Positions 6,250-24,263 of a DNA stretch of 64,000 nt are shown here, one piece after another; the first letter of the stretch is position 1, and every line of letters begins with the position of its first letter. A program made the translations under genes and the position numbers. The stretch is from Methanomassiliicoccaceae archaeon. Its GTDB lineage: Archaea; Thermoplasmatota; Thermoplasmata; Methanomassiliicoccales; Methanomassiliicoccaceae. A model generated the notes under the pieces. That model saw only the letters and a program-made list of their open reading frames with translations, did no database searches and had not been told where the DNA came from. Location of the stretch: NCBI GenBank assembly GCA_040776945.1, contig JAXGZN010000001.1, positions 672,001 to 736,000 of the forward strand, read 5' to 3'.

Positions 6250-7226
6250 AAATTGGAAAAGTGGCGTTGGTAGCGGCGGTCGTTGTCGTCCTGATAGCTG
6301 CCGCGGCGGGGGCCGTGCTCGTCATGAGCGCCCCTGTGGAGAAGAAGGACATGGAACTGAGGCTCACCTACTCGAACAAGATCGACTACGAGCCGCTGAT
6401 CATCGCCCAGGAGAAGGGCTTCTTCAAGGACGAGGGGCTGAACGTGACCGCGCTCGTCGTCAGCGGGGGAATCCAGTCCGCGGAGGCCCTGGCCACCGGC
6501 TCCGCGGACATGGGGGCCATGGGCGACGCGCCGGCGGTGACGCTGATGGCCAAGAACATGGGCGCCAAGATGGTCGCCAGGTACGGCGACGGCGAGGGGC
6601 AACACCGGCTGGTGGGATGGACAGACATCGGCAGCGTGAGCGATCTCGCGGGGAAGAAGGTGGGAGTGCAGTTCGGCTCCAGCAGCCAGGGCGCGTTCCT
6701 CCGCCTGCTGGAAGCGAACGGAATCAGCGCCGGTGACGTCACCCAGGTGCCCTTGAGCCCGGCGGACATGCCCAATGCAGTGAAGACGAGGCAGGTGGAC
6801 GCGATCATCGGCAGCGAGCCATGGCCGACCAACGTGGAGAACGCCAACGGCGCGGACGTTCACGAGATCGCCAACTCCAGCGGCCTGGGCAGCACCTACC
6901 CGCTGGCGCTGATGGTCACTCAGAAGCTCATCGACGAGAGGCCGGAGGCGGTGACCGCGGCCCTGAAGGCCATCGACCGGGCCATCAAGTACATGGAGAC
7001 CGACCGCGATGCGGCCATCACCCTGTGCGCCTCGAAGATCGGAATATCGGCCGAGGACGAGAAAAAGTGCCTGACCACCGTGAGCTACGATCTGGGGCTC
7101 AACGAGACGGACATCATCAGCCTGCGCTCGGTGGGCGAGTTCCTGGCGTCCAGCGGCAAGATCGCCGCCCTGCCGGACATCGAGGCCTCCATCGACCGCA
7201 CCTACCTGGACGCGGTGAAGGACTGA
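6246..7226 (+). CDS. ABC transporter substrate-binding protein (SsuA/TauA/NMT1 type)
   Basis: N-terminal anchor; AQEKGFFKDEGL, DLAGKKVGV. Confidence 0.87.
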   Translation: MKIGKVALVAAVVVVLIAAAAGAVLVMSAPVEKKDMELRLTYSNKIDYEPLIIAQEKGFFKDEGLNVTALVVSGGIQSAEALATGSADMGAMGDAPAVTLMAKNMGAKMVARYGDGEGQHRLVGWTDIGSVSDLAGKKVGVQFGSSSQGAFLRLLEANGISAGDVTQVPLSPADMPNAVKTRQVDAIIGSEPWPTNVENANGADVHEIANSSGLGSTYPLALMVTQKLIDERPEAVTAALKAIDRAIKYMETDRDAAITLCASKIGISAEDEKKCLTTVSYDLGLNETDIISLRSVGEFLASSGKIAALPDIEASIDRTYLDAVKD

Positions 7227-7237
7227 GCTCCGGAGGG

Positions 7238-8308
7238 ATGCCGATGAGACCGCGGGAGAGGATGGAGGCGGCGCTGCGAGGGGGAGCGCCGGACCGCGTC
7301 CCGGTGTTCCTGCGCGACCTCACCCTGGGCCTCGATGTCATCGGCGTCCCCACCCCGGAGGTGTGCTCTGGCAAGTTCAACGCCGAGCTGTCATCCAGGG
7401 CGGTGGTGGCAACGCAGCGAGCGCTCGGCCACGACGCGGTGGTCGGCAGCATCCAGTTCTGCGGGCTGGAGACCGAGATGCTGGGCGGCGAGCTGCATTT
7501 TCCAGAGCGGACGATACCGACGATCCTACACCCGCCGTTCGCTTCCCCCGAGGACGTGGACCGTGCCGAGCTGCCCGACCCCCTGAGGGACGAGCCGCTC
7601 TCGAACGTCGTGAAAGCGTACGAGCTCACCTCCTCGAGCGTCGGCGATGAAGTGGCCATTCTGGGCAACATCGAGGGTGCGGTGACCAAGGCGGGGATGC
7701 TCCGCGGGCTCGAGGCCCTGCTCATGGACCTGCTGACCGACCGCGGGTTGGCGGAGCGGACGATCGAGTTCGCCGCCCGCATGGGCGAGGATCTCGCTGA
7801 CGCGCTCGCATCACATGGTGTGAACAGCGCGCTGTTCGTCGCCGCCGCTTCCGACAACCCGGACATAATAGGCCCGGATGATTTTCGAAGGTACTCGCTT
7901 CCCGGGCTGAGGCGAGTGGTGGACGTCGTCAACGCTAACGGGCTGCCGACGGTGTTCCATCCCCATGGCATCTTCACCGAGCCGATGTTCTCGCCCCTGG
8001 TGTCGGAATCGATCGCGCAGGGCATCGCCGGCTTCCAGTTCGCCGAGCGCAACGACCTCGCGTTCGCGAAGCGGGAGTGGGGGAATGTGACATGCATACT
8101 GGGTGGAGTGGACGCGTTCACCACGCTGCTCCTCGGCCCGGAGGAGCGCATAATCAGGGAGACGGAGGACTGCCTTCGATCGTGCGGACCGTCTGGCTAT
8201 GTCATGATGTGCTCCTGCTCGCTGCACCGCGGCATGCCCCTTGGGAACGTCAAAGCGATGGTCGACGCCTGCCGCCGGTGGGACCCCGACCGCTTGAGAT
8301 CACCTTGA
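7238..8308 (+). CDS. Uroporphyrinogen decarboxylase / MtaA-CmuA methyltransferase family protein
   Basis: MRPRERM...PDRVPV start; ILGGVD; C-terminal CSCSL; RBS GGAGG. Confidence 0.75.
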   Translation: MPMRPRERMEAALRGGAPDRVPVFLRDLTLGLDVIGVPTPEVCSGKFNAELSSRAVVATQRALGHDAVVGSIQFCGLETEMLGGELHFPERTIPTILHPPFASPEDVDRAELPDPLRDEPLSNVVKAYELTSSSVGDEVAILGNIEGAVTKAGMLRGLEALLMDLLTDRGLAERTIEFAARMGEDLADALASHGVNSALFVAAASDNPDIIGPDDFRRYSLPGLRRVVDVVNANGLPTVFHPHGIFTEPMFSPLVSESIAQGIAGFQFAERNDLAFAKREWGNVTCILGGVDAFTTLLLGPEERIIRETEDCLRSCGPSGYVMMCSCSLHRGMPLGNVKAMVDACRRWDPDRLRSP

Positions 8309-8338
8309 GCTCGGAGCTCGCTTCTCCTCTCATTGGAC

Positions 8339-9718
8339 TCAGCAGAACCAATGGGCGCGAGGCTCGCAGGAGCGGTGGGCGACGATGGTCTTCTTCTTAG
8401 TGAACATCTGCAGCCTGCTCATCGACGAGGGGATGCCGCTCTGCTTCCACCCCTGGAAGTACTCGCCGCCGGGCAGCGTGCGGACGCACTCGTTGATCCA
8501 AACGTTGCCGACCTCGAGACGATTAGCGACGTCGAGGCCATCCTTAGGGTCTGATGTCCACACTGTCGCCCCCAGCCCGTACCTCGTGTTGTTGGCCAGG
8601 GCGATCGCTTCCTCATCATCGCGGACGGCGCGCACCGGGCACACCGGCCCGAAGGTCTCCTTTCGCACGAACTCGAGAGCGTCGTCCGTGTGCCGGAGCA
8701 CGGTCGGAGGGTAATAGAACCCAGGACCTTCAGGGATCTCGCCCCCGAACAGCAGCTCTGCGCCACGATCGACGGCATCCCGGACGACGCGGTGCACCTC
8801 ATCTCGGGCTTCCCCGCGTATCAGCGGGCCGACGTCCTCATCGAGGCTCAGGCGCCCGGCGATGCTGACCAGGCGACCCAGCAGCTCGTCGGTCACGGCC
8901 TCGTGCGCGTACACCCGCTTTATGCGCACGCACACCTGCCCCCCGCGGCTGAAGGTGCCGTAGGCGATGCCCCTGGCCGCCTGCTCGATGTCGGCGTCCT
9001 GGCGCACGATGCTGGCGTCGTTGCCCGAGAGCTCGAGGATCAGGGGCTTGATGCCGGCGTTCCTCGAGATGTCCAACCCGGTCTCGATTCCTCCGGTGAA
9101 GACGATGGCGTCGAGGTCGGAGGTGACCATCAGCTTCCCGATGTCCGCTCCCCCGACCACCGGGACGTAGAGGTCCTTGGGATAACCGGCCTCGCAGACC
9201 AGCTCGGCGATCTTCAGCCCGGACAGCGTGGACAGCTCCGACGGCTTGAACACCACGGCGTTGCCGGCGAGCAGCGCCGGAATGGCGGTGATCATCGTCT
9301 GCCAGAAGGGGAAGTTCCAAACTCCGATGTGGCCGATGACGCCGTGCGGGAGGAACGATATCGTCGCGTCGGTGGACGTCCATGATGAAGGAAGAGGATA
9401 CGGGCGGTCTCCCGTGGCCAGGTGCTCCTCGATGTAGTGATCGATCCCCGAGAGGGCGCTGTTGTACGCCCCAATCAGCGCCTTCTTTGGTATGCCGACC
9501 TCCTCGTGCATGAGGCCCACGACCTCATCGCGGCGGCGGAGGCAGACCGCTTCCAGGTCCTTGATCAGCGTGGCACGATCCTCCCGTGAGGTGCCGCGGT
9601 ACCACTCCTTCTGGCAACGCCTCGCCCGGGCCAGGGCGTCGCGGAGCTCGGCCGGTGTGGACGATGCGATCTCTCTTATTATCTGCCCCGTGCGGGGGTT
9701 GACGGAACGGACGACCAC
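8339..9718 (-). CDS. Aldehyde dehydrogenase family protein
   Basis: WNFP, GNAVVFKPSE, FTGG, LELSG, GQVC, ETFGPV. Confidence 0.92.
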   Translation of the reverse strand: MVVRSVNPRTGQIIREIASSTPAELRDALARARRCQKEWYRGTSREDRATLIKDLEAVCLRRRDEVVGLMHEEVGIPKKALIGAYNSALSGIDHYIEEHLATGDRPYPLPSSWTSTDATISFLPHGVIGHIGVWNFPFWQTMITAIPALLAGNAVVFKPSELSTLSGLKIAELVCEAGYPKDLYVPVVGGADIGKLMVTSDLDAIVFTGGIETGLDISRNAGIKPLILELSGNDASIVRQDADIEQAARGIAYGTFSRGGQVCVRIKRVYAHEAVTDELLGRLVSIAGRLSLDEDVGPLIRGEARDEVHRVVRDAVDRGAELLFGGEIPEGPGFYYPPTVLRHTDDALEFVRKETFGPVCPVRAVRDDEEAIALANNTRYGLGATVWTSDPKDGLDVANRLEVGNVWINECVRTLPGGEYFQGWKQSGIPSSMSRLQMFTKKKTIVAHRSCEPRAHWFC

Positions 9719-9803
9719 GAAGCTCTAATCCCGTGGCCGGTATTGATGCTTTGTCCGCCGGAGTCGAGCGATAGTCTCGAATCTATTCCGTTGAAGCTCT
9801 AGA

Positions 9804-9923
9804 TCACAACTCCACGACCTCCGCGCGCTTGCGGTCGATGAACCGCTTCCGCGTGCCGTTGCCGGAGCCCTTGTGAACGACCTTGACGCCCCAGGCTTTC
9901 TGCATGGTCTCCACCGACGCCAT
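9804..9923 (-). pseudogene. 3' remnant of family-A partner (putative immunity) gene
   Basis: MASVETMQKAWGVKVVHKGSGNGTRKRFIDRK aligns by eye with EAIREHWMVPVLDKGIGIGRMTKYMDGK at the C-terminus of 15039..15665. Confidence 0.55.
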
Positions 9924-9929
9924 GATCAA

Positions 9930-10122
9930 TTACGCTGGCCTGGGACCGGACTTCCGCCGCCAGCCTGGTAAGTATGGCCCCGAGGCCGGCCGCCCAGTCG
10001 ACCACTCCGTCCCAGATGTCCTCGATGATCGAGGTCAGCGGATCGAGGATAGTATCGCGGACGAGGTCGATGAGCCACGTCGCGAGCGAGGTCGTCTGCT
10101 TATTTACGATCTCGGTTCCGGC
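9930..10122 (-). pseudogene. Truncated orphan C-terminal cassette 4 of the polymorphic protein
   Basis: EIVNKQTTSLATWLIDLVRDTILDPLTSIIEDIWDGVVDW resembles the junction IVNAFQAFVTWAIEFITD...FGPFID; no start codon. Confidence 0.5.
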
Positions 10123-10131
10123 TTAAACGGA

Positions 10132-10510
10132 TCAGTAAGGCCGGTTCTTCCAGTCTCTTGGCAGCTCCGGCAGAGGACCGTGATACCTCTGGTACGCCGA
10201 TCTCATGGCCAACCCGATGTCGTAGGTCACGAGGATGGTCGATCTCTTTTTCTTCAGCCGTATTATACCTCTTCTCTTGTCCTTGCCGGTCACGGTGGTG
10301 TACTTGTTAGGAGAGACGTAGATCCACGCTATGTCTTCCCATCGGACGTCCTTTGGTTTAAAAAACGGTATTCGAGTTTCACCCCATCCTTGTCGATTCG
10401 CACTCGCAGCGGCCTTGAGACGTATTCCGTCTGTACAATAATAATTGGGACCATCAGGCTGCCGAAAAATCCGTATATCAGGAGAAGCGGGTTCGGCACT
10501 ATGATATATA
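10132..10510 (-). pseudogene. Frameshifted family-B partner membrane protein, 5' end cut by IS110
   Basis: ...GSLMVPIIIVQTEYVSRPLRVRIDKDGVKLEYRF, then a frameshift at the A-run ~10360, then KPKDVRWEDIAWIYVSP...AMRSAYQRYHG; homologous to 13474..13923. Confidence 0.65.
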
Positions 10511-10586
10511 ATTGAAAAAATGACCATCGGGCTAAAAGCGCGGCATTCGTTACCTAAAGTAGCCAAACAAAAGGAAGGAATGCCGC

Positions 10587-11593
10587 ATGAAATACTCTAG
10601 TTAGATACATAAAGATTGCACGACCGCCTGCGCGGTCAGCGCAGGCGGGAAGGCCGTGATGAGCGCCGAGGTCACCACCGACGCTGCCGGCCTCAGCGAA
10701 CTGCACGCGCGAATGAACGGTTGCGAGTACAGCGTGATGATGGAATCGAGCACCTACTCATACGTCGCCTATCGATTCTTCGAACGACTGGGCATCGAGA
10801 CGCACGTGGTCCACGCTCGTAGCTTGAAGATGATCACTGACAGCGACAAGAAGACCGACCGCTCGGACGCGGAATGGATCGGCCGCTGCCTGCGGCTGTG
10901 GAAGCTCGGCGAGATCGAGCTTTCGATGTCTTACTTTCCGACGGAGGTCGAGGCGGAGCTCAAGGACCTCTGCCGGTACAAGGAAGAGCTATCCTCCAAG
11001 CTGGGCGACGACGTGCGACGAATAAGATCGCACATGAGCCGCAATTGCCTGGAACTACCTCCACAGTTCCAGAACCTGTCGACCAGGAAGTCCAGGAACT
11101 TCATCATCGTGACATACGCGAACGATTACACCTTGGTGAAGCGAGTGAGCGGCTACGCCTCGCTGCTCATCGAGTCAGAACAAGTAGTCAAGGAGATCGA
11201 GAGCAGGGGAGCGAACGACATGAACGTCGAACTGCTTGAATCTATACCGGGCATAGGACGGCAGACCGCCGTGCAGCTGATGTCGATGATAGTGGACGTG
11301 ACCAGGTTCAAAGATCCCGAGCGGCTTTGCGCATACTTCGGCATGGTGCCTCGAGTTCGCGATTCGGGAGGCAAGGAACATCATGGCCGCATGACGACGA
11401 GGACAACATGATGCGCTCGATCATGGAACGAGTTACTTCGAGCCATATCCACTTCTGCGATTCGACGATAACCGCATACTTCGAACGCAAAGCGAAGGAG
11501 ATGGGGAACAAGAAGGCGCTCACTTCGGCAGCGAGGAAAATGCTGGTCGTGATCCACACGGTTCTGATGAGGAAAACGCCGTTCACCGCCTGA
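10587..11593 (+). pseudogene. IS110-family transposase/recombinase, with an in-frame amber at codon 6 and a frameshift at ~11400
   Basis: MKYSS*IHKDC..., MESS, KTDRSDA, ESIPGIG, AYFGMVPRVRDSGG; C-terminal AARKMLVVIHTVL lies in another frame. Confidence 0.85.
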
Positions 11594-11608
11594 GCTACCT
11601 CAGGCGGT
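11585..11608 (+). other. Perfect 10-bp hairpin over the transposase stop (accgcctgag-ctac-ctcaggcggt)
   Basis: Direct inspection; could belong to the element's non-coding RNA or be a terminator. Confidence 0.5.
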
Positions 11609-11918
11609 CTTACGTCCGATGTGCGCTCAACGAGATAAGAGGATAAGGACCGAGGACCATGCCGTCGACTGCTTTTGCGGGCCTTGAACGGATGCCGCCT
11701 TTAAAAATCATCGAGCTCAAAAGGTCCAGGCCTGGAATGTCATACTGCGGATCTTGCCGCCAAAGTAAATTAGGTTGTTCCTCGAACTCGGGAACACGCT
11801 CACGGACGAGCTTGCATAGCGTAAGCTATAAACAATGGGCATCACAATTCAGTAAAAGCCGCACTTTTAGCCTAAGTAAATCAGTGGATCGTGACAAAGG
11901 GCATCTTACGGGCCTCCC

Positions 11919-12188
11919 TTATGCGATATATATTAAGACCAGGGGATCACCGATCTGCACTTCCTTCGGGCGCCTTATAACCCCGAGGTAGGTGATTGGG
12001 ACGAGGAGCAATAGGGCAATAGCGGTGAAGAAAAAGATGCCTACCAATTGTGCCGCCCAGAAATCGGTGATGATGTACATTAACAGGCCGATGCAAAATA
12101 GGAAAATGGAGGAGAAAATCGCCAGGCCCATGAAATGGATGTCAGGGGGGTTTCTTATTTGTACCCTACTTTTCTCTGCGCCTTTCAT
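11919..12188 (-). pseudogene. Truncated family-B partner membrane protein
   Basis: Two TM helices, then YLGVIRRPKEVQI (compare EYRLKPKVVI, NYLRFPKLIDI), then a premature stop. Confidence 0.55.
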
Positions 12189-12192
12189 GCAA

Positions 12193-12663
12193 TCATCTAC
12201 TCATAATAAGTTCATCGCCAGGCAAAGTTCTCATCATCATTTTTTCATATTTCGCCTTGATGTCTGTCGCTAGTCGACTAGGGATTATATACGGATACAA
12301 CCGACCAGAGGCATACAGATGGCGCTCGTCCTTAAGTCCGATCGTTGTCTGCCTTTTCATTGATAGCTTACGAATATCTGAAAAACGAATTAAGACATCT
12401 GGCCCGACTACGAACCTCATGCAAATTTGGTTCTCCATAACAATGACAACTTTAGGCTTCAGACGATATTCCCTATAAGATGAGACGATTATTGGAGGCA
12501 CCCCGATAAACAGGGAGAGAAATATTCCACCTATGCCCCATACGCCGGCTAAAAATAGGAAAATGCCGCCAATAAGGAAACAAAGTCCAATGAGAATAAT
12601 AAAATAAAACTCAAATGGTTTTCCATTGTCGATTGAGCAAAGGCGCTCTTCCGTCTCACTCAT
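12193..12663 (-). CDS. Family-B partner membrane protein (2 TM plus PH-like domain), putative immunity protein
   Basis: ATG 2 nt after the cassette-3 stop; similar to 13474..13923 (YPY...KAKYEKMM). Confidence 0.65.
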   Translation of the reverse strand: MSETEERLCSIDNGKPFEFYFIILIGLCFLIGGIFLFLAGVWGIGGIFLSLFIGVPPIIVSSYREYRLKPKVVIVMENQICMRFVVGPDVLIRFSDIRKLSMKRQTTIGLKDERHLYASGRLYPYIIPSRLATDIKAKYEKMMMRTLPGDELIMSR

Positions 12664-12665
12664 TT

Positions 12666-13466
12666 TCAATCCCAATCACACCCCTCATATGACATCCATG
12701 CACCTATTCCACCGAATATGAGCGAGATGCCGCCCATATATGGGTCTACTACCGCTCCCGCAAGCGATATGATTAAGGATTCTATCGATATGAAGAAACC
12801 GATTATACCCATCGCAGCATCATTGGCGATGACCGAGTAGAGACCTAAAGCTAATGCGATTATGCCATCGGCTAGAATGATGCCGGACAAGATTTTTGTG
12901 GTAGAGACATAAAGCAGATCGGCAACGCCCAATATGCTAGTGAATACCCCCACGGCTGCAGCCCCCAAAGCCCAAGCGGTCTCGTCCGGAACCTGTTCGG
13001 TCCCGCCATTAGACGCGACATTGTAGGTCCAAGCTTGCCATGGCGCGACTCCATACATTGGAGTTCCCTGATCCCACTGAGCGGTAGACTGTATTCCTAA
13101 AGCATTATAAGCTATCACACCGACAATGCCCATCATCATGTAACCTACTAGGTTGGATGCTCCGAGCGTAATCACTTGGACCGATGTGCTCACGACCTTC
13201 GCAAGGACCGCTACAATCGAGAGAGCGGAATAGAACTCTCCATGAATGGCATCGGCAAGTTTGTTCGCAGTTCTTGGATCTATTGACCCAGATGTTTCCA
13301 GTTCTTCAACCACTAGGTGAGCCATGGACTGAACATGCTGGCAATATTGCATCCATTGCTCTCTAATCATATCGATGAGCGGGCTGAATACTTCTTCAAT
13401 AACGTTGTTAATGAACTCGATCGCCCACGTCACGAACGCCTGGAGAGCGTCGATGATGTCGTCGAT
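12666..13466 (-). CDS. Orphan C-terminal cassette 3 (hydrophobic multi-TM module)
   Basis: Begins *AIDDIIDALQAFVTWAIEFINN with no proper start upstream of the junction; low GC. Confidence 0.7.
   Translation of the reverse strand: MDDIIDALQAFVTWAIEFINNVIEEVFSPLIDMIREQWMQYCQHVQSMAHLVVEELETSGSIDPRTANKLADAIHGEFYSALSIVAVLAKVVSTSVQVITLGASNLVGYMMMGIVGVIAYNALGIQSTAQWDQGTPMYGVAPWQAWTYNVASNGGTEQVPDETAWALGAAAVGVFTSILGVADLLYVSTTKILSGIILADGIIALALGLYSVIANDAAMGIIGFFISIESLIISLAGAVVDPYMGGISLIFGGIGAWMSYEGCDWD
13411..13444. repeat. 34-bp junction core repeat (cassette 3)
   Basis: atgaactcgatcgcccacgtcacgaacgcctgga, identical to 14693..14726. Confidence 0.95.
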
Positions 13467-13473
13467 CGCTCAA

Positions 13474-13923
13474 CTACCGGCCTTGGTACTCCGGCGGATA
13501 GCGGCCCATGGCCTCGCGGTACTTGGCCCGGACGGCCTCGCTGATCTCGTAGCTGAGAGGATATGGACACATTTTCCCGTGGAGGAAGACGGAACCGCCC
13601 CTGGCCCACCGGCCCATGAACGTCGAGGAATTGCCGGGGTCCGAGTACACCGACTTGACCTGAGACCATCGAACCTCATTTTTCCTCGATAATGGAAATT
13701 GGAAGATGATGCCATCATCATTGATGTCGATGAGCTTTGGGAATCGGAGATAGTTCCTATCAAGGTTAGCTAAATAGAAGACAGATGGTAGGAGAATCGC
13801 GACTACCAGAGACAATAGGCCCCCTCCATCTAGATAGAAAGTCAGGCCAATGATGAGCAATATAGTGGCAATAATAAACAACCACGCCACATCCTTGGTC
13901 TGTCTCGGATTATCATATCTCAT
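13474..13923 (-). CDS. Family-B partner membrane protein (2 TM plus PH-like domain), putative immunity protein
   Basis: Starts 4 nt after the cassette-2 stop; PKLIDINDDGI...VRWSQV...YREAMGRYP. Confidence 0.7.
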   Translation of the reverse strand: MRYDNPRQTKDVAWLFIIATILLIIGLTFYLDGGGLLSLVVAILLPSVFYLANLDRNYLRFPKLIDINDDGIIFQFPLSRKNEVRWSQVKSVYSDPGNSSTFMGRWARGGSVFLHGKMCPYPLSYEISEAVRAKYREAMGRYPPEYQGR

Positions 13924-13927
13924 GTCA

Positions 13928-14790
13928 TCACTCCAGCGACTTTATAGAGCAGTAGATACCCACGCCCCCGAACAACGCCGACATGCCGGCGACGATCCTC
14001 GCCGATGGCAACGGTGTCATCCAGTGGAGACTGCCGAGTACACCAGCGGCACCGCGGACACGAAGATCGCCACCACCGAGAGGTTGAAGCTCCCGACGGC
14101 CATGGCGAGCCATCCCAGAGCGGAGCCCACGATGCTCAGCGCCAGGTAGAACGCCTCCTTCATGACCACCGCTCCGCTCAGCACCAGACCTCCGGCGCCG
14201 ACGAAGGTCCCGAGGATGCTCATGCATCCCCCGAACGCGCCCCAGGCCGTTTGCTCTTTTGACGAGGTGAAGGTCCAATCGCATAGTGACTCCAACACTA
14301 CCCTGGTCCAGGTCCTCAAGGTTTCCAGCGCATCGTCGACCGGACCGCTCAGCACCCCATCGTCCCCATTGATATATGAGAACACCTCGCTCAGTATCAG
14401 AGCAACGACCATCGGAGCGACGAACGCCACGATCATCCCGTAGACGCTGGTCACCGGGGTCAGGGCAATGAGCAGGATGTCGATTACGACCGCTATTCCC
14501 ATCAGCACCGTGAACAGCTCTCCGGTGAGCGCGCTGCCGAGAGCGCGCTGAGAGCCATCGCTGACCGTGCCGGTGCCGGAGAAGTCCAGGGCAGCCCGGT
14601 CGACCGCTGCGTTCACTCCTTCCAGATAATCGAAGATGTAGCTCTTGACGTCATCGATGAACGGCCCGAATATGTCGGTCACCAGATCGGTTATGAACTC
14701 GATCGCCCACGTCACGAACGCCTGGAACGCGTCGGCGATCTCGTTAACAGCCTGGACGAAGCTCGACGCGAGATTATGGGGCGCTGATCC
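13928..14790 (-). pseudogene. Orphan C-terminal cassette 2 (multi-TM), frameshifted near 14025
   Basis: LASSFVQAVNEIADAFQAFVTWAIEFITD...; the tail GMSALFGGVGIYCS in the next frame matches GISLIFGGIGAWMS of cassette 3. Confidence 0.7.
14693..14726. repeat. 34-bp junction core repeat (cassette 2)
   Basis: Identical to 13411..13444; 30/34 to 16409..16442. Confidence 0.95.
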
Positions 14791-14884
14791 ATGAAGACCA
14801 TCCAGTCGCAGATAGTTCTTACAAGTCGTCGATCGCTTCTCCCTTTGCTTGCCCGATTGTGCCCAGGCTCTCATTGCCTTGCTC

Positions 14885-14950
14885 ATCATTCATCGGTAGA
14901 CTCAATGGATATCGGCCCATGTGCTCTCGATACGCTTCCCTAACTACGTG
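14885..14950 (-). pseudogene. 3' remnant of family-B partner gene
   Basis: VREAYREHMGRYP versus VRAKYREAMGRYP in 13474..13923. Confidence 0.6.
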
Positions 14951-15038
14951 GTGATGGACCGCTTCATCGGAGAGTACCTCGCCTGTGCGTTCAAGAGGAG
15001 GTAGCCGTCCTTGGTGTGCCATCGATGCTTAGTCTTCA

Positions 15039-15665
15039 TTAATATGATGGCTTGCCATCCATATACTTAGTCATCCTCCCTATTCCGATCCCCTTATCCA
15101 GGACTGGGACCATCCAGTGCTCTCTGATCGCTTCGGTCAGGGTGATGATCTGGCCGGGAGGCTTGGGGCCAGAACGATACTGCTTGCCCCTCACCGTTAT
15201 CACCACGAAACCGATGGGCGCATCCTCCCAGAGAAGATCGCTGCGATTATTCACGTTCTGGCGTAGCTTGCCCCTCACGACTTCAATCAAAGTGACCTCG
15301 TCCCGGGGCACGAAACCGTCGAAGCCGAGTAAACGTTGGTACAGGAACGTATACATCTCGATGCCGTTCGACCTTAACCTCGTCTTCGTTGATGCTAGTC
15401 TCATATCACGGAAGTGATACTCACTGACCCATAGGAGAAGGACGATCCCTGAGCCTCCGCCGATAGCGGCTACATACCTCACATCTTCTCCACCGTAGAT
15501 TACGAGGTTTCCCATTAAAATGAGAATCGAAATGACACCCATTCGTATTAACCAAACGAAGGACATCACTTGAAGATGGTTTTGCAAGGTGGAGTCCAAG
15601 ACAAAGGGGGGCAATTGCTCCTCAAACAGGACCTCACCATCTGAAATACGTTTAGTTTCACGCAT
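15039..15665 (-). CDS. Family-A partner membrane protein (2 TM plus soluble domain), putative cognate immunity protein
   Basis: Start overlaps the stop of the large gene (ATGCGTGA); low GC. Confidence 0.7.
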   Translation of the reverse strand: MRETKRISDGEVLFEEQLPPFVLDSTLQNHLQVMSFVWLIRMGVISILILMGNLVIYGGEDVRYVAAIGGGSGIVLLLWVSEYHFRDMRLASTKTRLRSNGIEMYTFLYQRLLGFDGFVPRDEVTLIEVVRGKLRQNVNNRSDLLWEDAPIGFVVITVRGKQYRSGPKPPGQIITLTEAIREHWMVPVLDKGIGIGRMTKYMDGKPSY

Positions 15666-18600
15666 TCCTAGCCCTCTCAGCAGCCGTGTATAGACTGAAC
15701 GTCGAAACGCTGATATCAAATATGGCAAAGCCCAATAAGAATTTACCTACAGTCGGTAGCTTTACTGGTTTTACCAAATATATGGCGAATCCAAGTATGG
15801 ATAAAACAAATCCAATGCAACTCAGTTGCAAAGATTCCAGCGGATTCTCGACTGCCAACGACCATAGTGCTAAAGCGAAGCCGATGGTAGCAATGGCAAA
15901 TGATACGACTCCCAATGGATCGATGGCCATCAGCATCTGTATCTTTTCCGCCAAGAAATTGAAGATGGAGATGGAAAGCCCCAGGACTATTTCAATCTGG
16001 CTTGCTAGTTCGCTCCCGATGATGGTTTCCATCTGATTGCGCAGTTGATCGCCCCCGTTTATCAAACTCAATGGATTGAACCCTAATGCCGTTTGCAGAA
16101 CCGTGCTGACCATTAGCGTCAGCACCAAGGGGATGACTACCTCATTTATCAAGAATGAATATGGCATGAGCACGACGGACAGGATCATAATCGCCGCTGT
16201 TACCGCTGTAGCCACAATCATCAGGGCATCGATCATGTCAATGATGGGCGCTCCGATGGTAGCAGCCCCTTCATTCTCAGTCATACTCCCAGACTGTATG
16301 GATTGTGTTGCAACTGTAAGTAGCGATGAAATTACTCCGCAAGCTCCTGAACTCCCAATGCCGAGATTGCCTAAAACGCTCCCTACCGCCGTCTCTATTG
16401 TATCCGTGATGAAGTCGATCGCCCAGTCCACGAACGCCTGGAACGCGTTCACTATCTTCGTCACCGCCGTCTGTATGACCGATATGTAGGCGTTCGTGAT
16501 GGTGCTTATCAGCTTCACCCCGGCCTCGTACACCATCTCGGCGAGGTTGTAGAGCGTGGTGCCGATGGCGACGAGGCAGTCGAAGACGAACTCGAGGACC
16601 TCGCCGACGGTCAGATAGTCAGGCGCTTCACCTAGAGGTGACGACTGGATATTGTACGGTAACCTCGATTGGATATCGGCCGGCAGGTGGAGCAGGTACA
16701 GGTTGCTGGGCGAGATCACCACGCTGTTGCCGATCTGCGCGTTGGTCGGATCGTGCGTCAGCTTCCCTAGCAACTCTTCCGCCGCATAATTGCTCATCGT
16801 TTTCTCGAACACTGCAACGATGTGTCCTGAGCTGAACGCCTGCGAACCATCGGTCGAGTAGAACGATCCGCCGGAGAGCTCGCTCCCTGAGGGATTGGAG
16901 GTCAGCACATCGCTGAACTTTGATTCGAGCGCTAGGTAGCGAGGGACTATGATGGTGTTCACGCCGGGAGAGAAGTGCGCGCTAGATCCTTGGACAGTAA
17001 CGTACAGCATGTATACCTGCCCGTCGGCAGTATACCGGTAGTTGTTCGCGCCGATGACGTAGAGGTCGCTGTTCTCCTCGGTCGAATTGACGATGATGAG
17101 GTTGCTCTTCGGGGCGATCGCCGTCTCGACGAAGAATCCCACCTCACACTCGCTGTTCACGTTAAACCAGCCATCGCTTAGATCGCCATGTGAATAGTAC
17201 TCGGTATGTCCGTTGCTGTAGTAGAAAGTGAACGGATAATCGCAATGATTTGGGTCCGTGTCCTCCATGTCCAGCTTGATATCGTCGTATGCGGGAGGAT
17301 TGCCGGCGTTATCGGCCACCGCCATCATCACGAAACCCTTGCTCGTTCCGGTATCGTCCACCTGGATGTAATAGTTGAAGTTGAAGTACCGGTCCTCGTG
17401 CGTGTACACGTCGTACAGACGCTCGGTGGACAATGCGATCGTAGAATCGGTCACATCGTCGTAATAGGTAAGGACGAAGAAGATGTCGTGCACGTTACCC
17501 CAGTTTATGTCTTCCCACAGATTGAGGAAGTTGATGTTCACGTGCAGCATCATGTCCCCGAGATACTTGTCCACATTGTCTCGGAAGCCGTCCCCGTCGG
17601 TGTCCGCGCAGGTGGGGTCGAGAGGCTGGTTGCACGGCGTGATGCCCTCGATCTCGTCACGGTCCCAGATGCCGTCCCCGTCGGTATCATAGAGCACCGG
17701 GTTGGTGATCCACCCGTCCTCGCCGAAGCTCACCTCTTCGCCGTCCCAGATGCCGTCCCCGTCAGTATCTTTGACCAATGGGTTCGTTTTCCCCTCAAGC
17801 TGCAAGATGACGTACTGCACCTGGCCGTCCGATCCCGCGTAGTTCTGATCGGCGACCATGAACTCGAAGGTGCCTCCCTGGCGATAGAGCGAGATCGTAT
17901 AGTGCGGCGACAACGGTATGTAGGTCTCGAACACGTTCGCCCCGACATTCCATTGATCGTAGAGGCACAGGTTAGGCAAACCGGAGCCGACCTTGTACAT
18001 CCATACTTCGATGTCCTGGGCGCGGTCGGTGACGATGCCGACGTGCACCCTGACCGCGGTGATCTCCACCGACGCAGGAATGGAGGGGATGGTGATGGAC
18101 ATTATCGCACGGTCGCTCCACGAGCCGTTGGGCACTTTGTAGAACTTGTCGGTGGACCAGCTCTGCGACCATCGTTCCGCGCCGTCCATCAGGCCGTCGT
18201 CATCGGTGTCGGGGTCCCAAGGACTGGTGTGGCCGTAGATCGTTCCGAAGTATCCCTCGTCGGCGTCCTTGAGGCCGTCGGAGTCGGTATCGTCGGAGAA
18301 CGGATCGAGGTACCTATCGTTGGTCCGATCCGCTTCCATGCGATCGACCGCACCGTCGTTGTCGCTGTCGATCAGCAAGTGAAGCTCGGCGACCGACACC
18401 GAGGCGGTGCCGATCTTGAACAGGATGTTCAGCTGGGTGCCCCACATGTAATCGACGAAGGTCGAGGGATCGATGCGGAACGACGCGGTGGTCCACGAGG
18501 AACTCGCCTGAATGGTTTTCACGTCGACGAACGAAGTGCCGGTCCATTGCGATACCACGAACTGATTCTGGGAGCGATACACCAGCTCGACCTCGTGGAA

Positions 18601-19152
18601 GTTGCCGGATACAGGACCGTTCACGAAGAACAACGCGCTGCCATCGGTCGTGCTGCGGTAGGTGCGGCCTCCGTCCGAGAGGACCGAGGACCAGTGGCCG
18701 TTGTTGTAGATGTTGATGCCAGGGTTGCGGTACCGGCCGCTGTCGTCGTACACCCCGCCGACCACGGTGTACAGGTCGCACGGGCGCATGGTCACCGAAG
18801 TAACGTTAGAGATGGATGACACGAACCTCAGCCGAATGTTGTATCCCGGAGCGGAAGCGTCCGCGTCGTAGTACACGCCGCGCTGCAGGGAGATCACGGC
18901 CGAGTTGCCCCAGCGGTACAGGTTGCCGATGGTCACGTACCCATCGAAGGACAGCTGTTGTACCTCGATGTACTCCGCCGCATCGCTGTACGTGATCTCC
19001 AGCGTGAACACCATCGTCTGCACCGGGACGTTGACGAGCATCGTCGCCCCGGCGGTGCCGTTGGCCACCGTCCCGTCGAACGTCCATCCGGACTCGAACC
19101 CCACGCCGGGATTGTGGTACGAGGCCGGGGTGAAGCTGATAAGCACCATCAC
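15658..19152 (-). CDS. Large extracellular-type protein with DxDxDG Ca-binding repeats and a variable multi-TM C-terminal module (polymorphic toxin-like); probably 5'-truncated
   Basis: Six D(T/S)DxDG repeats, beta-rich domains, junction IVNAFQAFVDWAIDFIT, GC drop after the junction; no signal peptide; the ORF starts inside the inverted repeat. Confidence 0.75.
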   Translation of the reverse strand: MMVLISFTPASYHNPGVGFESGWTFDGTVANGTAGATMLVNVPVQTMVFTLEITYSDAAEYIEVQQLSFDGYVTIGNLYRWGNSAVISLQRGVYYDADASAPGYNIRLRFVSSISNVTSVTMRPCDLYTVVGGVYDDSGRYRNPGINIYNNGHWSSVLSDGGRTYRSTTDGSALFFVNGPVSGNFHEVELVYRSQNQFVVSQWTGTSFVDVKTIQASSSWTTASFRIDPSTFVDYMWGTQLNILFKIGTASVSVAELHLLIDSDNDGAVDRMEADRTNDRYLDPFSDDTDSDGLKDADEGYFGTIYGHTSPWDPDTDDDGLMDGAERWSQSWSTDKFYKVPNGSWSDRAIMSITIPSIPASVEITAVRVHVGIVTDRAQDIEVWMYKVGSGLPNLCLYDQWNVGANVFETYIPLSPHYTISLYRQGGTFEFMVADQNYAGSDGQVQYVILQLEGKTNPLVKDTDGDGIWDGEEVSFGEDGWITNPVLYDTDGDGIWDRDEIEGITPCNQPLDPTCADTDGDGFRDNVDKYLGDMMLHVNINFLNLWEDINWGNVHDIFFVLTYYDDVTDSTIALSTERLYDVYTHEDRYFNFNYYIQVDDTGTSKGFVMMAVADNAGNPPAYDDIKLDMEDTDPNHCDYPFTFYYSNGHTEYYSHGDLSDGWFNVNSECEVGFFVETAIAPKSNLIIVNSTEENSDLYVIGANNYRYTADGQVYMLYVTVQGSSAHFSPGVNTIIVPRYLALESKFSDVLTSNPSGSELSGGSFYSTDGSQAFSSGHIVAVFEKTMSNYAAEELLGKLTHDPTNAQIGNSVVISPSNLYLLHLPADIQSRLPYNIQSSPLGEAPDYLTVGEVLEFVFDCLVAIGTTLYNLAEMVYEAGVKLISTITNAYISVIQTAVTKIVNAFQAFVDWAIDFITDTIETAVGSVLGNLGIGSSGACGVISSLLTVATQSIQSGSMTENEGAATIGAPIIDMIDALMIVATAVTAAIMILSVVLMPYSFLINEVVIPLVLTLMVSTVLQTALGFNPLSLINGGDQLRNQMETIIGSELASQIEIVLGLSISIFNFLAEKIQMLMAIDPLGVVSFAIATIGFALALWSLAVENPLESLQLSCIGFVLSILGFAIYLVKPVKLPTVGKFLLGFAIFDISVSTFSLYTAAERARNA
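16429..16531. repeat. 103-bp inverted repeat, left copy
   Basis: Exact reverse complement of 19117..19219. Confidence 0.95.
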
Positions 19153-19219
19153 GAACGCCTACATATCGGTCATACAGACGGCGGTGACGAAGATAGTGAA
19201 CGCGTTCCAGGCGTTCGTG
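19117..19219. repeat. 103-bp inverted repeat, right copy, continuing into cassette-type TWAVEFFE
   Basis: Encodes YEAGVKLISTITNAYISVIQTAVTKIVNAFQAFV on the + strand. Confidence 0.95.
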
Positions 19220-19349
19220 ACGTGGGCGGTGGAGTTCTTCGAGGGGACCATTTTTAAGCTTCATGCCGACTTTCATCGATGAATTCAGAGTCCAGACATT
19301 TGGTGAAAGGGCGAGCAAATCATTTTAGCCGTCCTGGGTCTTCCTAAGG

Positions 19350-20501
19350 ATGTCCATGAAGCGCACTCCATTGTACGACGCCCATGTCGAATTAGGCGCC
19401 CGGATGGTCGAGTTCGGCGGCTGGGAGATGCCGGTCCAGTACACCAGTATCCTGGAGGAGCACCGAGCGGTCAGGGAGCGAGCGGGAATGTTCGACGTCT
19501 CCCACATGGGCGACCTGATCATCCGCGGGGCGGGAGCGGAGGACTCGCTTCGAGAGCTCCTTACCAACGACATCAAGGACCTCGCTCTGAGTAAGGGCAT
19601 CTACGCCCACATGCTGAACGAGGAAGGGAAGATCATGGACGACACCTTCACCTTCCGCGCAGGTTCTGACACCTACCTCCTGGTCCCGAACGCCTCGCAT
19701 GCCCAGCAGATCCATGAGTGGGTCCGCGACCACGTTCGAGGAGCGATCGTCACCAATGTCTCGGAGCGCGTGGCGGCCATCGCCCTGCAGGGGCCGAGAG
19801 CGCAGGAGGTGCTGCAGCGCCTCACCGACAAGGACCTGAAGAGCGTGAAGAGGCTATACAGCGATATCGTCAACCTCAAGGTCTCGTCGCCGAGCGGACC
19901 CGAGCGCTTCCTTCCCGATGTTCTAAACTTCCCCGCGCCCCTGCCCGGCACCACGCAGAGCTACGTCACCCGCACTGGCTACACCGGCGAGGATGGGTTC
20001 GAGATCCTCGTGGAGCGCGGAGCGGCGGTCGCGGTGTGGAACGCGCTGCTCGCCGCGGGCAAGGACCTCGGGCTCATGCCCTGCGGACTAGGGGCCAGGG
20101 ACCTCCTCCGCCTGGAGATGGGGTACCTGCTCTCGGGCACCGACTTCGACGGCACACAGAGCACCCTGGAGACCGGGCCTGCTTGGGCGATCAAGTGGGA
20201 CCATGCGTTCATCGGCCGGGAAGCGATGATGAAGCAGAAGGAGCGCGGCGGATATCGCAAGCTTGTTGGGCTCGAGCTCCAGAACAGGGGCATCCCCCGG
20301 CATGGCTATCCCGTCGTCGTCGGCAACCGTGAGGTCGGCATGGTGACCTCCGGTACTCTGTCACCCATCTTGCAGAAGGGCATTGCCCTCGCGTACGTGG
20401 ACGCGGAGCTCACCAAGGAGAACACCGAGCTCGCGGTGAGGATCAGGGACAATTATGTCCGTGCCATCGTGGTCAAACCGCCGTTCATCAGGAAGGGGTG
20501 A
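19350..20501 (+). CDS. gcvT: Glycine cleavage system aminomethyltransferase T
   Basis: KRTPLYDAH, FGGWEMPVQY, GMFDVSHMG, TRTGYTGEDGFE, GLGARDLLRLE. Confidence 0.93.
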   Translation: MSMKRTPLYDAHVELGARMVEFGGWEMPVQYTSILEEHRAVRERAGMFDVSHMGDLIIRGAGAEDSLRELLTNDIKDLALSKGIYAHMLNEEGKIMDDTFTFRAGSDTYLLVPNASHAQQIHEWVRDHVRGAIVTNVSERVAAIALQGPRAQEVLQRLTDKDLKSVKRLYSDIVNLKVSSPSGPERFLPDVLNFPAPLPGTTQSYVTRTGYTGEDGFEILVERGAAVAVWNALLAAGKDLGLMPCGLGARDLLRLEMGYLLSGTDFDGTQSTLETGPAWAIKWDHAFIGREAMMKQKERGGYRKLVGLELQNRGIPRHGYPVVVGNREVGMVTSGTLSPILQKGIALAYVDAELTKENTELAVRIRDNYVRAIVVKPPFIRKG

Positions 20502-24225: not shown

Positions 24226-24263
24226 TGAGGAGCAATCCTCCCCGCTCGACGGGGGTGAGACCA

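What the first reader, a model, noticed from the sequence alone, without database searches (positions are those of the whole stretch)
9800..19282. Candidate archaeal polymorphic toxin/immunity system with an array of swappable membrane-active C-terminal cassettes
Seen: the 1164-aa DxDxDG-repeat protein has a junction IVNAFQAFVDWAIDFIT. After it, GC falls and a ~250-aa multi-TM module follows, translationally coupled to a 2-TM partner gene. Downstream on the same strand the junction recurs at the start of orphan modules that lack a proper start: ADAFQAFVTWAIEFIT (~14.7 kb), IDALQAFVTWAIEFIN (~13.4 kb) and a degenerate SLATWLIDLV (~10.1 kb). Each orphan has a different hydrophobic tail and its own partner gene(s). 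Known: this is the layout of CdiA/Rhs/MafB loci with orphan toxin-immunity pairs. Inference: the tails are pore-forming or membrane-active toxins and the partners are immunity proteins. I do not recognise this carrier or junction from any described system. Antigenic or adhesin variation is the alternative reading.
Basis: partly seen in the sequence, partly recalled or inferred. Interest (0 to 1): 0.92.

Follow-up and report, generated by a model that had tools for sequence, protein, structure and literature searches.

The report
Decayed archaeal swappable membrane-tail cassette locus
A methanogen's genome holds the worn-down remains of a gene system in which a giant surface protein can exchange its membrane-embedded end, each version paired with its own small membrane partner, which looks like an archaeal counterpart of bacterial toxin and immunity cassettes but is untested.

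Summary
Window 9.8-19.3 kb is a low-GC island in a Methanomassiliicoccus-type genome. It holds a 1164-aa TSP3-repeat protein, a conserved junction helix, and four same-strand copies of that junction. Each junction leads into a ~250-aa five-helix membrane tail, and each tail is followed by a small two-helix membrane partner.

New points:
- All tails belong to one homologous family (~20% identity), not unrelated domains.
- Partners fall into two families, p1 and p2. p2 is a two-helix anchor plus a PH-like domain (pLDDT 90.5).
- Tail-then-partner order holds in 25 of 29, 13 of 13 and 14 of 17 tails in relatives.
- Cassette 2 is 96% identical in DNA to a cassette in another species whose carrier is only ~30% identical. 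The homology starts inside the junction.
- The 1164-aa gene is itself 5'-truncated. It lacks about 790 residues, including the signal peptide, and abuts an inverted junction copy.
- The locus also carries an IS110, two frameshifts and a deletion.

Best reading: a decayed polymorphic cassette locus. Its tail/partner pairs most likely act as cognate membrane toxin/immunity or kin-recognition pairs, like CDI ionophores with CdiI. Toxicity, binding and delivery are untested, and no known toxin fold was found.

The parts
19117..19282 (+). Inverted junction copy (J2, 19117-19251) read on the + strand, followed by about 10 unrelated codons and a stop at 19280-19282. It abuts codon ~12 of the main ORF on one side and gcvT (19350-20501) on the other.
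   Evidence: Inverted repeat I1, 135 nt, 91%. The + strand ORF 18905-19282 carries the junction motif. Tail profile E 4.3e-12.
15658..19152 (-). Main ORF, 1164 aa: the 5'-truncated carrier (TSP3 repeats, P-domain-like region), then a hydrophobic helix, the junction and tail 1.
   Evidence: Relatives align only from its residue 9-12 onward and have open frames of up to 2815 aa. The G010 homolog is 1751 aa with a signal peptide. The missing N-part was not found elsewhere in the genome.
16534..16602 (-). Hydrophobic helix just before the junction (aa ~851-873), a likely first membrane span.
   Evidence: Highest 19-aa Kyte-Doolittle window is 1.57 here and 1.34-2.43 in 17 relatives' pre-junction regions.
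16396..16485 (-). Junction helix J1 (aa 890-919), the conserved recombination point.
   Evidence: Nucleotide homology to G010 (79%) stops at 16409. Homology to G007 and G002 covers only 16608-16409.
15661..16395 (-). Tail 1 (aa 920-1164): a helical stretch followed by about 5 hydrophobic helices.
15039..15728 (-). Partner 1 (p1 family, two membrane helices plus a conserved C-domain). The probable start is the ATG at 15665 (208 aa), overlapping the main ORF's end by 8 nt.
   Evidence: a 208-aa database form, 100% identical. p1 profile E 1.5e-83. Contigs from RNA libraries cover it.
14822..15028 (-). Weak relic of the C-terminus of a p2 partner.
   Evidence: p2 profile E 0.0017 over 17 residues. 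Weak.
14017..14889 (-). Orphan 2: junction at 14686-14752 plus tail 2. Frameshifted at about 14017-14020, so the last ~30 codons lie in another frame (13928-14020).
   Evidence: It is 91.5% identical in protein to the tail of a 692-aa ORF in G002, which reads through, and 96% identical in DNA over 14744-13431.
13474..13923 (-). Partner 2 (p2 family): two membrane helices plus a PH-like domain.
   Evidence: AlphaFold2 pLDDT 90.5. PH/FERM-F3/PTB chains top both fold searches. 94% identical to the G002 partner.
12666..13469 (-). Orphan 3: junction at 13404-13470 plus tail 3. There is no start codon before the junction; a GTG lies at 13433.
   Evidence: Tail profile E 1.6e-72.
12193..12675 (-). 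Partner 3 (p2 family).
   Evidence: p2 profile E 5.7e-38.
11919..12188 (-). Truncated p2 partner (89 aa: two helices and the first strand only).
   Evidence: p2 profile E 5.9e-13, model positions 4-82.
10597..11879 (+). IS110-family insertion sequence. Its transposase is split over two frames (10656-11411 and 11327-11593).
   Evidence: Pfam DEDD_Tnp_IS110 and Transposase_20 score above their cut-offs. Metagenome contigs break at 10596 and 11871-11879. A second copy, 79% identical, lies on contig 2.
10132..10566 (-). Frameshifted p2 partner, split over two frames (10329-10499 and 10132-10566).
   Evidence: p2 profile E 2.7e-21 and 6.1e-11 in two frames. 86% nt identity to a G007 partner.
9943..10088 (-). 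Orphan 4 relic: the junction end and the first ~45 codons of a tail. The rest is deleted.
   Evidence: Tail profile E 3.2e-12. 88% nt identity to G002 tails.
9804..9951 (-). C-terminal relic of the p1 partner of orphan 4. It is joined to the orphan 4 relic by a ~1.15-kb deletion relative to G002 contig 11. The conserved flank (aldehyde dehydrogenase, 8339-9718) follows.
   Evidence: p1 profile E 3.6e-13. 82% nt identity to L033 3876-4329. Shared flank.

Best explanation
The island is the decayed remnant of a cassette system that, among the Thermoplasmatota genomes sampled, is strong only in Methanomassiliicoccales.

Intact form (seen in relatives):
- A Sec-exported giant surface protein of 1400-3600 aa, with variable outer domains and a conserved ~900-aa TSP3-repeat stalk.
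- It ends in a membrane module: a hydrophobic helix, a conserved amphipathic junction helix, then a highly variable ~250-aa tail with about five membrane helices.
- Directly downstream lies a small partner with a two-helix membrane hairpin and a soluble domain. The domain is PH-like in family p2 and a different conserved domain in family p1.
- Further 5'-truncated junction-tail-partner cassettes are stacked behind.
- Recombination at the junction swaps or displaces cassettes, within a genome and between species.

Proposed function (inferred, not shown): each tail and its partner form a cognate membrane pair. The tail would perturb the membrane (ionophore-like) or mark identity, and the partner would neutralise or recognise only its own tail in the bilayer or on its cytoplasmic face. 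This would work like CDI alpha-helical ionophores with two-helix CdiI proteins.

State in this genome: the carrier has lost its first ~790 codons, including the signal peptide. Cassette 2 and partner 5 are frameshifted, cassette 4 is mostly deleted, and an IS110 has landed in the array. The locus is probably a graveyard or archive, with the partner genes perhaps still useful.
For: Shown directly:
- Five junction copies lie in the island.
- The profile built from 26 tails finds 26 of 261 genomes of the order. In a 401-genome phylum sample, the 7 matching genomes outside the order give only weak matches, best E 3.5e-13.
- The same profile finds 467 cluster representatives among 1.84 billion proteins. 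In 148 of the best 150 the tail lies at the C-terminus. Pre-junction lengths are spread evenly from 0 to 500 aa, as expected for truncated orphans.
- Full-length relatives begin with signal peptides (L023, L024, L025). 13 of 26 representatives of 1000 aa or more have a hydrophobic N-terminus by my Kyte-Doolittle measure.
- A partner follows the tail on the same strand in 25 of 29 tails, in 13 of 13 tails in ten further genomes, and in 14 of 17 tails in metagenome loci.
- Six of the 7 relatives' tails that aligned with tail 1 along most of its length are followed by a p1 partner, as tail 1 is.
- Tail identity and partner identity co-vary: Mantel r 0.80 for 19 p2 pairs (0 of 2000 permutations reach it) and r 0.98 for 6 p1 pairs (3 of 2000).
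- Cassette exchange: window 14744-13431 is 96% identical over 1315 nt to G002, although the two carriers share ~30% protein identity. The homology begins in one junction and ends in the next.
- Homology between carriers stops sharply at 16409.
- Partner genes occur without tails: 43 of 261 genomes have p2 against 26 of 261 with tails. G003 has 11 p2 hits and no tail.
- The p2 model is a two-helix hairpin plus a PH-like sandwich.
- The decay features rest.

From the literature: CDI ionophore toxins are five-helix membrane bundles sharing only 20-39% identity. Their polymorphic two-helix CdiI proteins protect only against the cognate toxin (PMC11630599, abstract and passages read).
Against: - No toxicity, binding or delivery has been shown.
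- The tails match no toxin family in Pfam, NCBIfam or PDB sequences. The tail model is poor (pLDDT 64.6), so the fold search says little.
- Unlike classical polymorphic toxins, all tails are one family with one architecture.
- The hydrophobic helix before the junction suggests that the tail is an integral part of the producer's own membrane, at the cell-proximal end of the protein. No releasing protease or cleavage motif was seen.
- Co-variation of tail and partner also follows from simple linkage.
- Many orphans have their own ATG. dN/dS between the G000 and G002 copies of cassette 2 is 0.42 for the tail and 0.68 for the partner, so some orphans may be ordinary expressed genes.
- p2-like genes without tails could belong to a wider family with another role.
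- Makarova et al. 2019 (mBio), the main survey of archaeal polymorphic toxins, is not held. Its text and supplements may already list this family.
Confidence: 0.5

Rival explanations
1. Non-toxic surface-protein module. The tail is only a polytopic membrane anchor or base of a giant adhesin or cell-surface protein, and the partner is a dedicated stabilising or assembly subunit. The short forms are independently expressed paralogues. High divergence reflects weak constraint on membrane helices rather than conflict.
For: - The tail is always C-terminal and follows a probable membrane span.
- All tails share one architecture.
- Many short forms have an ATG, and dN/dS is below 1.
- The basic unit in several genomes is one carrier plus one partner, with no array.
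- The carrier's repeats resemble those of cell-cohesion and gliding proteins, though far below the family cut-offs.
Against: - It does not explain stacked 5'-truncated copies with evenly spread truncation points.
- It does not explain start-less orphans such as 12666-13469.
- It does not explain inter-species transfer of one tail+partner unit bounded by junctions.
- It does not explain partner-only islands or the patchy distribution of 26 of 261 genomes.
Confidence: 0.25
2. Self or kin recognition without killing. Tail and partner form an identity lock-and-key in the membrane, comparable to Proteus IdsD/IdsE (recalled from memory, no call). The giant ectodomain mediates cell-cell contact, and cassettes diversify recognition types.
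For: - The same layout evidence as for the best explanation applies.
- The variable parts are membrane-embedded or cytoplasm-facing in both proteins.
- The ectodomain carries adhesion-type repeats.
Against: No evidence that tails pass between cells. No phenotype data. On sequence alone this cannot be told apart from the toxin reading.
Confidence: 0.15
3. Surface sensor coupled to a membrane effector for defence. Binding of a virus or other agent to the ectodomain would trigger the tail to depolarise the cell, with the partner as its brake. Diversity would come from an arms race with viral inhibitors.
For: Only general features: a low-GC island, patchy distribution, an IS and decay.
Against: - The PADLOC library was not scanned, so defence families were not tested.
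- The junction was not found in viral contigs.
- Orphan cassette arrays are not typical of such systems.
Confidence: 0.05

Closest known systems
CDI alpha-helical ionophore toxins (CdiA-CT of the EC93 type) with CdiI (PMC11630599, abstract and passages read)
   Same: - Hydrophobic C-terminal module of about five membrane helices on a giant surface protein.
- One homologous toxin family diverged to 20-39% identity.
- Small partner with a two-helix membrane hairpin encoded directly downstream, polymorphic and cognate-specific.
- A conserved motif marks where the variable part starts.
   Different: - No CdiB transporter, FHA repeats or VENN motif were found by Pfam.
- Archaeal, Sec-type signal peptide.
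- The partner carries an extra PH-like or p1 domain.
- The tail is probably anchored in the producer's own membrane behind a membrane span.
- Activity is untested.
Rhs / CdiA / MafB loci with orphan toxin-immunity cassettes (Zhang et al. 2012, PMC3482391, abstract and passages read)
   Same: - Arrays of 5'-truncated C-terminal cassettes that keep a piece of the conserved upstream sequence.
- Each cassette has its own downstream small gene.
- Exchange by recombination.
- Low-GC, horizontally moved cassettes.
   Different: - No RHS/YD, HINT or other listed carrier or toxin domain.
- The tails are one membrane-domain family, not many unrelated enzymatic toxins.
- That paper's passages describe archaeal systems as few and embedded within bacterial radiations, whereas strong matches to this family came only from Methanomassiliicoccales among the genomes searched.
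VARTIG module of Thermococcales (PMC8416519, abstract and passages read)
   Same: An archaeal hypervariable locus: a large secreted protein with a variable C-terminal part, followed by small, mostly membrane proteins. Its organisation resembles polymorphic toxin systems and its function is unknown.
   Different: There the variable part is an Ig domain and the downstream genes are heterogeneous. Here it is a five-helix membrane tail with two defined partner families. No sequence relation was seen.
Membrane-anchored bacterial PH-domain proteins (Pfam bPH_6, PH_40, DUF6560; Ycf4-like layout)
   Same: Two N-terminal membrane helices followed by a PH-like sandwich.
   Different: Only 1 of 25 p2 members touches bPH_6 (E 6e-4). 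None was checked against a curated cut-off; the window's own partner 2 scores 13.8 bits against a cut-off of 22. No role as partner of a swappable tail is known to me.

Membership tests
Polymorphic toxin systems (sensu Zhang et al. 2012) | Secreted multidomain carrier with an N-terminal trafficking signal | tested here: not met
   The window's own gene lacks it. Its open frame reaches only 2 codons beyond the start, and relatives align from its residue 9-12. Relatives do have signal peptides.
Polymorphic toxin systems (sensu Zhang et al. 2012) | Conserved region or motif after which C-termini vary between homologs | tested here: met
   The junction is conserved across 32 ORFs. Identity is about 60% in the junction against about 20% in the tails. 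Breakpoints fall at the junction.
Polymorphic toxin systems (sensu Zhang et al. 2012) | C-terminal domains are diverse toxin domains of known or predictable toxic activity | tested here: not met
   All tails form one family. No toxin domain was found in Pfam, NCBIfam or PDB sequences.
Polymorphic toxin systems (sensu Zhang et al. 2012) | Small gene directly downstream of each toxin module that confers immunity | tested here: inconclusive
   Adjacency is met (25 of 29, 13 of 13, 14 of 17). Immunity function cannot be tested here.
Polymorphic toxin systems (sensu Zhang et al. 2012) | Stand-alone (orphan) toxin cassettes with immunity genes downstream of the main gene | tested here: met
   Seen in the window and in relatives.
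Contact-dependent inhibition (CdiB/CdiA/CdiI) | TpsB transporter, FHA-type repeats and a VENN pre-toxin motif | tested here: not met
   No such Pfam domains in the window's carrier or in two full-length relatives. CdiB itself was not searched for in the genome.
Rhs/YD-repeat toxins | RHS/YD repeats and a PxxxxDPxGL-type core end | tested here: not met
   No RHS hits in Pfam or NCBIfam.
Colicin-type pore-forming domain | Ten-helix bundle with a hydrophobic hairpin; Pfam colicin pore domain | tested here: inconclusive
   No Pfam hit. The Foldseek search of the tail model gave nothing at E 0.001 or better, but the model is weak (pLDDT 64.6).
PH-like fold (partner family p2) | Seven-stranded sandwich capped by a C-terminal helix | tested here: met
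   Model pLDDT 90.5. The top Foldseek rows are PH/FERM-F3/PTB domains at probability 0.94-0.99, though E is 0.017 or worse. The VIA-align top rows are almost all PH-superfold, Z 5.0-7.3 with 75-95 residues aligned. A Z in this range is middling.
Pfam bacterial PH families (bPH_6 and relatives) | Score above the curated cut-off | tested here: not met
   13.8 bits against a cut-off of 22. 1 of 25 members matches at E 6e-4.
IS110 family insertion sequence | DEDD_Tnp_IS110 plus Transposase_20 domains | tested here: met
   47.1 and 66.4 bits, above cut-offs of 29 and 21.3. The reading frame is split.

The most novel reading that the evidence does not exclude
An archaeal polymorphic system found, among the genomes sampled, almost only in Methanomassiliicoccales. 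Giant surface proteins would carry swappable five-helix membrane tails that act as ionophore-like toxins or identity tags, passed between neighbouring cells through direct membrane contact or transient fusion with topology preserved. This would be analogous to myxobacterial outer-membrane-exchange toxins. Membrane-anchored PH-like proteins would then be a new class of cognate immunity proteins acting inside the bilayer or on its cytoplasmic face.
Probability: 0.3. Interest if true: 0.85.

Novelty: new variant of a known kind. Interest (0 to 1): 0.6.

Why it matters
Antagonism and kin discrimination among archaea are almost unexplored experimentally. The archaeal polymorphic toxins predicted so far appear mostly borrowed from bacteria (passages of PMC3482391).

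This family is different in four ways:
- Its strong matches were confined to one order of methanogens that live in guts and anaerobic digesters.
- It uses a new carrier, a new junction and a new membrane tail.
- Its partner has a PH-like fold.
- It shows clear cassette traffic between species.

If the tails are toxic or identity-defining, this would give a first handle on how such methanogens compete or recognise kin. It would also add a new type of membrane toxin/immunity pair.

For this particular window the biological weight is lower, because the locus is visibly decaying.

Tried and rejected
- **Complex prediction, tail 1 with partner 1.** No answer (score 0.00). Not evidence either way.
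- **Fold search of the tail model and PDB sequence search with the tail profile.** Only generic helical bundles and one designed bundle. The model is too weak to conclude anything.
- **Protein atlas for the tail.** Best scores 0.77-0.82, within chance range.
- **Word-index search with partner 1.** Only itself and one 75%-identical protein, both unnamed.
- **Junction search in viral contigs.** No relatives.
- **Inversion switching by the inverted junction copy.** No inverted junction was found in ten further loci with carriers or in 12 metagenome loci. It is therefore not a general mechanism.
  - One contig from an RNA library joins 16429 to 19220 on opposite strands, which is the inverted form. 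Another skips 13410 to 14693, which is loss of cassette 2.
  - However, 103 and 34 nt fit both sides of these joints. I take these repeats to be long enough for an assembler to have crossed them, though the tool does not state a word length.
  - The DNA contigs listed break at every junction copy but one (13404-13470 in run X7) and cannot settle it.
- **Depth of RNA-library contigs.** It is higher over partner 1 (28.5 and 24.6) than over neighbouring DNA (mostly 0-6, up to 10.7). The tool warns that contig depth cannot rank genes and that DNA may be present in such libraries, so this is a hint at most. Parts without RNA cover prove nothing.
- **Habitat labels of the runs.** Not interpreted, since any of the 14 strong holders may be the source sample.
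- **Makarova et al. 2019.** Could not be read. A search for 'Methanomassiliicoccus' together with 'polymorphic toxin' found 0 papers in the held library. Supplements are closed.
- **Earlier findings of this scan.** Nothing held.
- **hhalign, p1 against p2.** Probability 65%, E 6e-5 over the second helix and the first strands. Suggestive of distant kinship only.

Full report
**What is in the window**

The window comes from a 2.17-Mb, ~65% GC genome. Its closest public relatives are Methanomassiliicoccus and Methanomassiliicoccaceae MAGs (record titles). Between an aldehyde dehydrogenase gene (8339-9718, minus strand) and gcvT (19350-20501, plus strand) lies a ~9.5-kb island. Its GC drops to 0.42-0.61, against 0.62-0.69 around it.

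On the minus strand the island holds a 1164-aa ORF (15658-19152). This ORF has calcium-binding TSP3-type repeats and a hydrophobic C-terminus.

- Its DNA recurs in direct orientation at 14686-14752 and 13404-13470 (78-79% identity).
- A fourth, degenerate copy lies near 10.0 kb. A profile of 26 tails detects it (E 1.6e-9; E 3.2e-12 locally), and it is 88% identical in DNA to tails of genome G002.

**Tails are one family**

I anchored a small junction profile in 32 ORFs from the window and 21 loci of relatives, then compared what follows it. Nearly all tails linked into one cluster (27 of 30). They also align along their whole length:

- the junction helix;
- a helical stretch of about 60 residues with a recurrent TGxVS-like turn;
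- a hairpin of two membrane helices;
- a variable loop;
- three more hydrophobic helices.

Tail length is steady at about 240-270 residues, while identity is only about 20%. So the tails are not unrelated domains. They are extreme variants of one membrane module.

The AlphaFold2 model of junction plus tail 1 is all-helical but weak (pLDDT 64.6). It matched nothing meaningful in the PDB.

A hydrophobic helix lies just upstream of the junction in the window and in 17 relatives (highest Kyte-Doolittle window 1.34-2.43). I infer from this that the ectodomain crosses the membrane once before the junction. The variable module would then lie within and beneath the producer's own membrane.

**Partners**

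Each tail is followed on the same strand, with a small gap or a short overlap, by one of two small membrane proteins.

- **Family p2** (~150-170 aa; here 13474-13923 and 12193-12675, plus the truncated copy 11919-12188 and the frameshifted copy 10132-10566). It has two membrane helices and a soluble domain. The model is confident (pLDDT 90.5). PH, FERM-F3 and PTB domains top both Foldseek (probability 0.94-0.99, E 0.017 or worse) and VIA-align (Z 5.0-7.3). The protein atlas points to membrane-anchored bacterial PH families, but no Pfam cut-off is reached.
- **Family p1** (~210-230 aa; here 15039-15728, plus a C-terminal relic at 9804-9951). It has two helices and a better conserved C-domain that matches no family.

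p1 and p2 may be distantly related (hhalign probability 65%).

Adjacency counts:

- 25 of 29 tails of at least 180 aa in the first set. The four exceptions are one at a contig end, one fused in frame to p2, one with an overlapping p1 fragment, and one with no partner found.
- 13 of 13 tails in ten further genomes.
- 14 of 17 tails in metagenome loci.

Six of the 7 relatives' tails that aligned with tail 1 along most of its length are followed by a p1 partner, as tail 1 is.

Tail identity and partner identity co-vary. Mantel r is 0.80 for 19 p2 pairs (0 of 2000 permutations reach it) and 0.98 for 6 p1 pairs (3 of 2000). Linkage alone would also produce this.

**Evidence for cassette exchange**

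- Window 14744-13431 (tail 2 plus partner 2) is 96% identical over 1315 nt to a cassette in G002, a different species of the genus. There the cassette hangs on a carrier fragment that is only ~30% identical to ours. The shared stretch starts inside one junction and ends inside the next.
- Homology between our carrier and its closest relative (G010, 79% in DNA) stops at 16409, just past the junction. G007 and G002 match only the 200 nt around the junction.
- The tail profile finds 467 cluster representatives among 1.84 billion proteins. In 148 of the best 150 the tail is C-terminal. Of those 150, 101 are shorter than 500 aa and 26 are 1000 aa or longer. The length of sequence kept before the junction is spread evenly from 0 to 500 residues. 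That pattern fits displaced, randomly truncated orphans rather than a gene with a defined start.
- Some orphans have no start codon before the junction, including 12666-13469 here. Others do have an ATG.

**The locus here is decayed**

Relatives' genes have open frames of up to 2815 aa and align with ours only from our residue 9-12 onward. The G010 homolog is 1751 aa and begins with a signal peptide. It has ~790 residues that ours lacks, and these were not found anywhere else in this genome.

At exactly that point our ORF abuts an inverted copy of the junction (19117-19251, 91% identical to 16397-16531). Read on the plus strand, that copy runs on for about 10 unrelated codons to a stop just before gcvT.

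Further damage:

- Orphan 2 is frameshifted near its end relative to G002.
- Partner 5 is frameshifted.
- Orphan 4 and its p1 partner are fused by a ~1.15-kb deletion relative to the syntenic array of G002.
- An IS110-family element with a split transposase sits at 10597-11879.

In G001 the same aldDH-gcvT site holds only relics, in both orientations. G010 has a degenerate inverted junction ~240 bp upstream of its intact gene. I therefore read the inverted copy as a relic of an oppositely oriented cassette or gene, not as a general switch. No inverted junction was seen in ten other carrier loci or in 12 metagenome loci.

**Sequencing runs**

Fourteen DNA runs from six studies of digester and sludge metagenomes hold at least 97% of the sampled words of 15600-19400. 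Any of them may be the source sample. In the two DNA runs laid, the contigs listed are identical to the window but break at every junction copy except 13404-13470, which one X7 contig bridges.

Contigs from two RNA libraries cover much of the island. One joins 16429 to 19220 on opposite strands. Another joins 13410 to 14693. These would be the inversion product and the cassette-loss product of junction recombination. However, 103 and 34 nt fit both sides of the joints, so assembler paths through the repeats are an equally good explanation.

**Function**

Shown:

- the architecture;
- the two partner families;
- cognate co-occurrence of tail type and partner type;
- cassette traffic between species;
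- patchy distribution: 26 of 261 genomes of the order have tails, and the 7 matching genomes outside the order in a 401-genome phylum sample give only weak matches;
- partner genes without tails: 43 of 261 genomes have p2, and G003 has 11 p2 hits and no tail.

Inferred: these traits together are the signature of cognate conflict or recognition pairs. The nearest worked example is the CDI alpha-helical ionophore family. Those toxins are five-helix membrane bundles that share only 20-39% identity, and each is neutralised only by its own two-helix CdiI (PMC11630599, abstract and passages).

Against a simple toxin reading:

- the tails form a single family;
- no toxin signature was found;
- the tail probably sits in the producer's own membrane;
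- no release or delivery mechanism is visible;
- dN/dS is below 1 between the two copies of cassette 2 (tail 0.42, partner 0.68, small counts).

My odds are about 0.5 for a toxin/immunity-type mechanism, 0.15 for recognition without killing, 0.25 for a non-conflict anchor plus assembly partner, and a small remainder for other readings.

**Comparison and novelty**

The system works like polymorphic toxin loci, but it fails two of their defining tests here: there is no export signal on this copy, and the tails are not diverse known toxin domains. It has none of the CdiA, Rhs or colicin markers.

The Thermococcales VARTIG module is a conceptual cousin (PMC8416519).

I found no paper that links Methanomassiliicoccus to polymorphic toxins in the held library. 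The key survey by Makarova et al. 2019 and all supplements were not available, so prior listing of the family cannot be excluded.

I rate it a new variant of a known kind. The family as a whole is interesting. This window's copy is a degraded example.

Noticed in passing
window 19117-19282 (+) with 16397-16531: A 135-nt inverted repeat (91%) of the junction flanks the truncated carrier body. One RNA-library contig (run X15) joins 16429 to 19220 on opposite strands, which is the inverted arrangement. However, 103 nt fit both sides, so it may be an assembly path through the repeat.
   Followed up: partly
window 13410 / 14693: One RNA-library contig (run X16) skips 1282 nt between the junctions of orphans 3 and 2, which would be loss of cassette 2. 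34 nt fit both sides, so this could also be an assembly artefact.
   Followed up: partly
L056-L060 (genome G003): G003 (96% complete) has 11 p2-type hits, and p1 genes at two of the five sites read. They lie singly or in tandem at several sites, and no tail was detected in that genome. Two of the p2 genes carry a zinc-ribbon-like N-terminal extension. These are partner-only islands.
   Followed up: partly
L061 (genome G001), syntenic aldDH-gcvT site: The same chromosomal site holds only about 2.9 kb of relics. A frameshifted p1 lies on one strand next to aldDH. A tail fragment plus p1 plus p2 lie on the other strand next to gcvT. No carrier gene remains.
   Followed up: partly
L023 (genome G010) 5871-11126: The closest full-length homolog (1751 aa, with signal peptide) sits inside a glycosyltransferase/sugar-modification gene cluster. 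Its tail is cut by a stop after about 64 residues, and no partner gene follows.
   Followed up: no
window 14697-15760: Contigs from two RNA libraries covering partner 1 have k-mer depths of 28.5 and 24.6, against mostly 0-6 (at most 10.7) elsewhere on the stretch. This may mean strong expression of the partner gene, but contig depth is a poor measure.
   Followed up: no
window 10597-11879; genome contig 2 at 327629-328901: The IS110-family element in the array has a second copy, 79% identical, on the other contig. Metagenome contigs show loose ends at 11166 and 11879, which suggests other insertion contexts in related strains.
   Followed up: partly
window 23000-25000 and 40000-41000: Two further low-GC patches (0.51-0.57). 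The first contains tRNA-Gly(CCC) at 24566-24638. Neither was examined.
   Followed up: no
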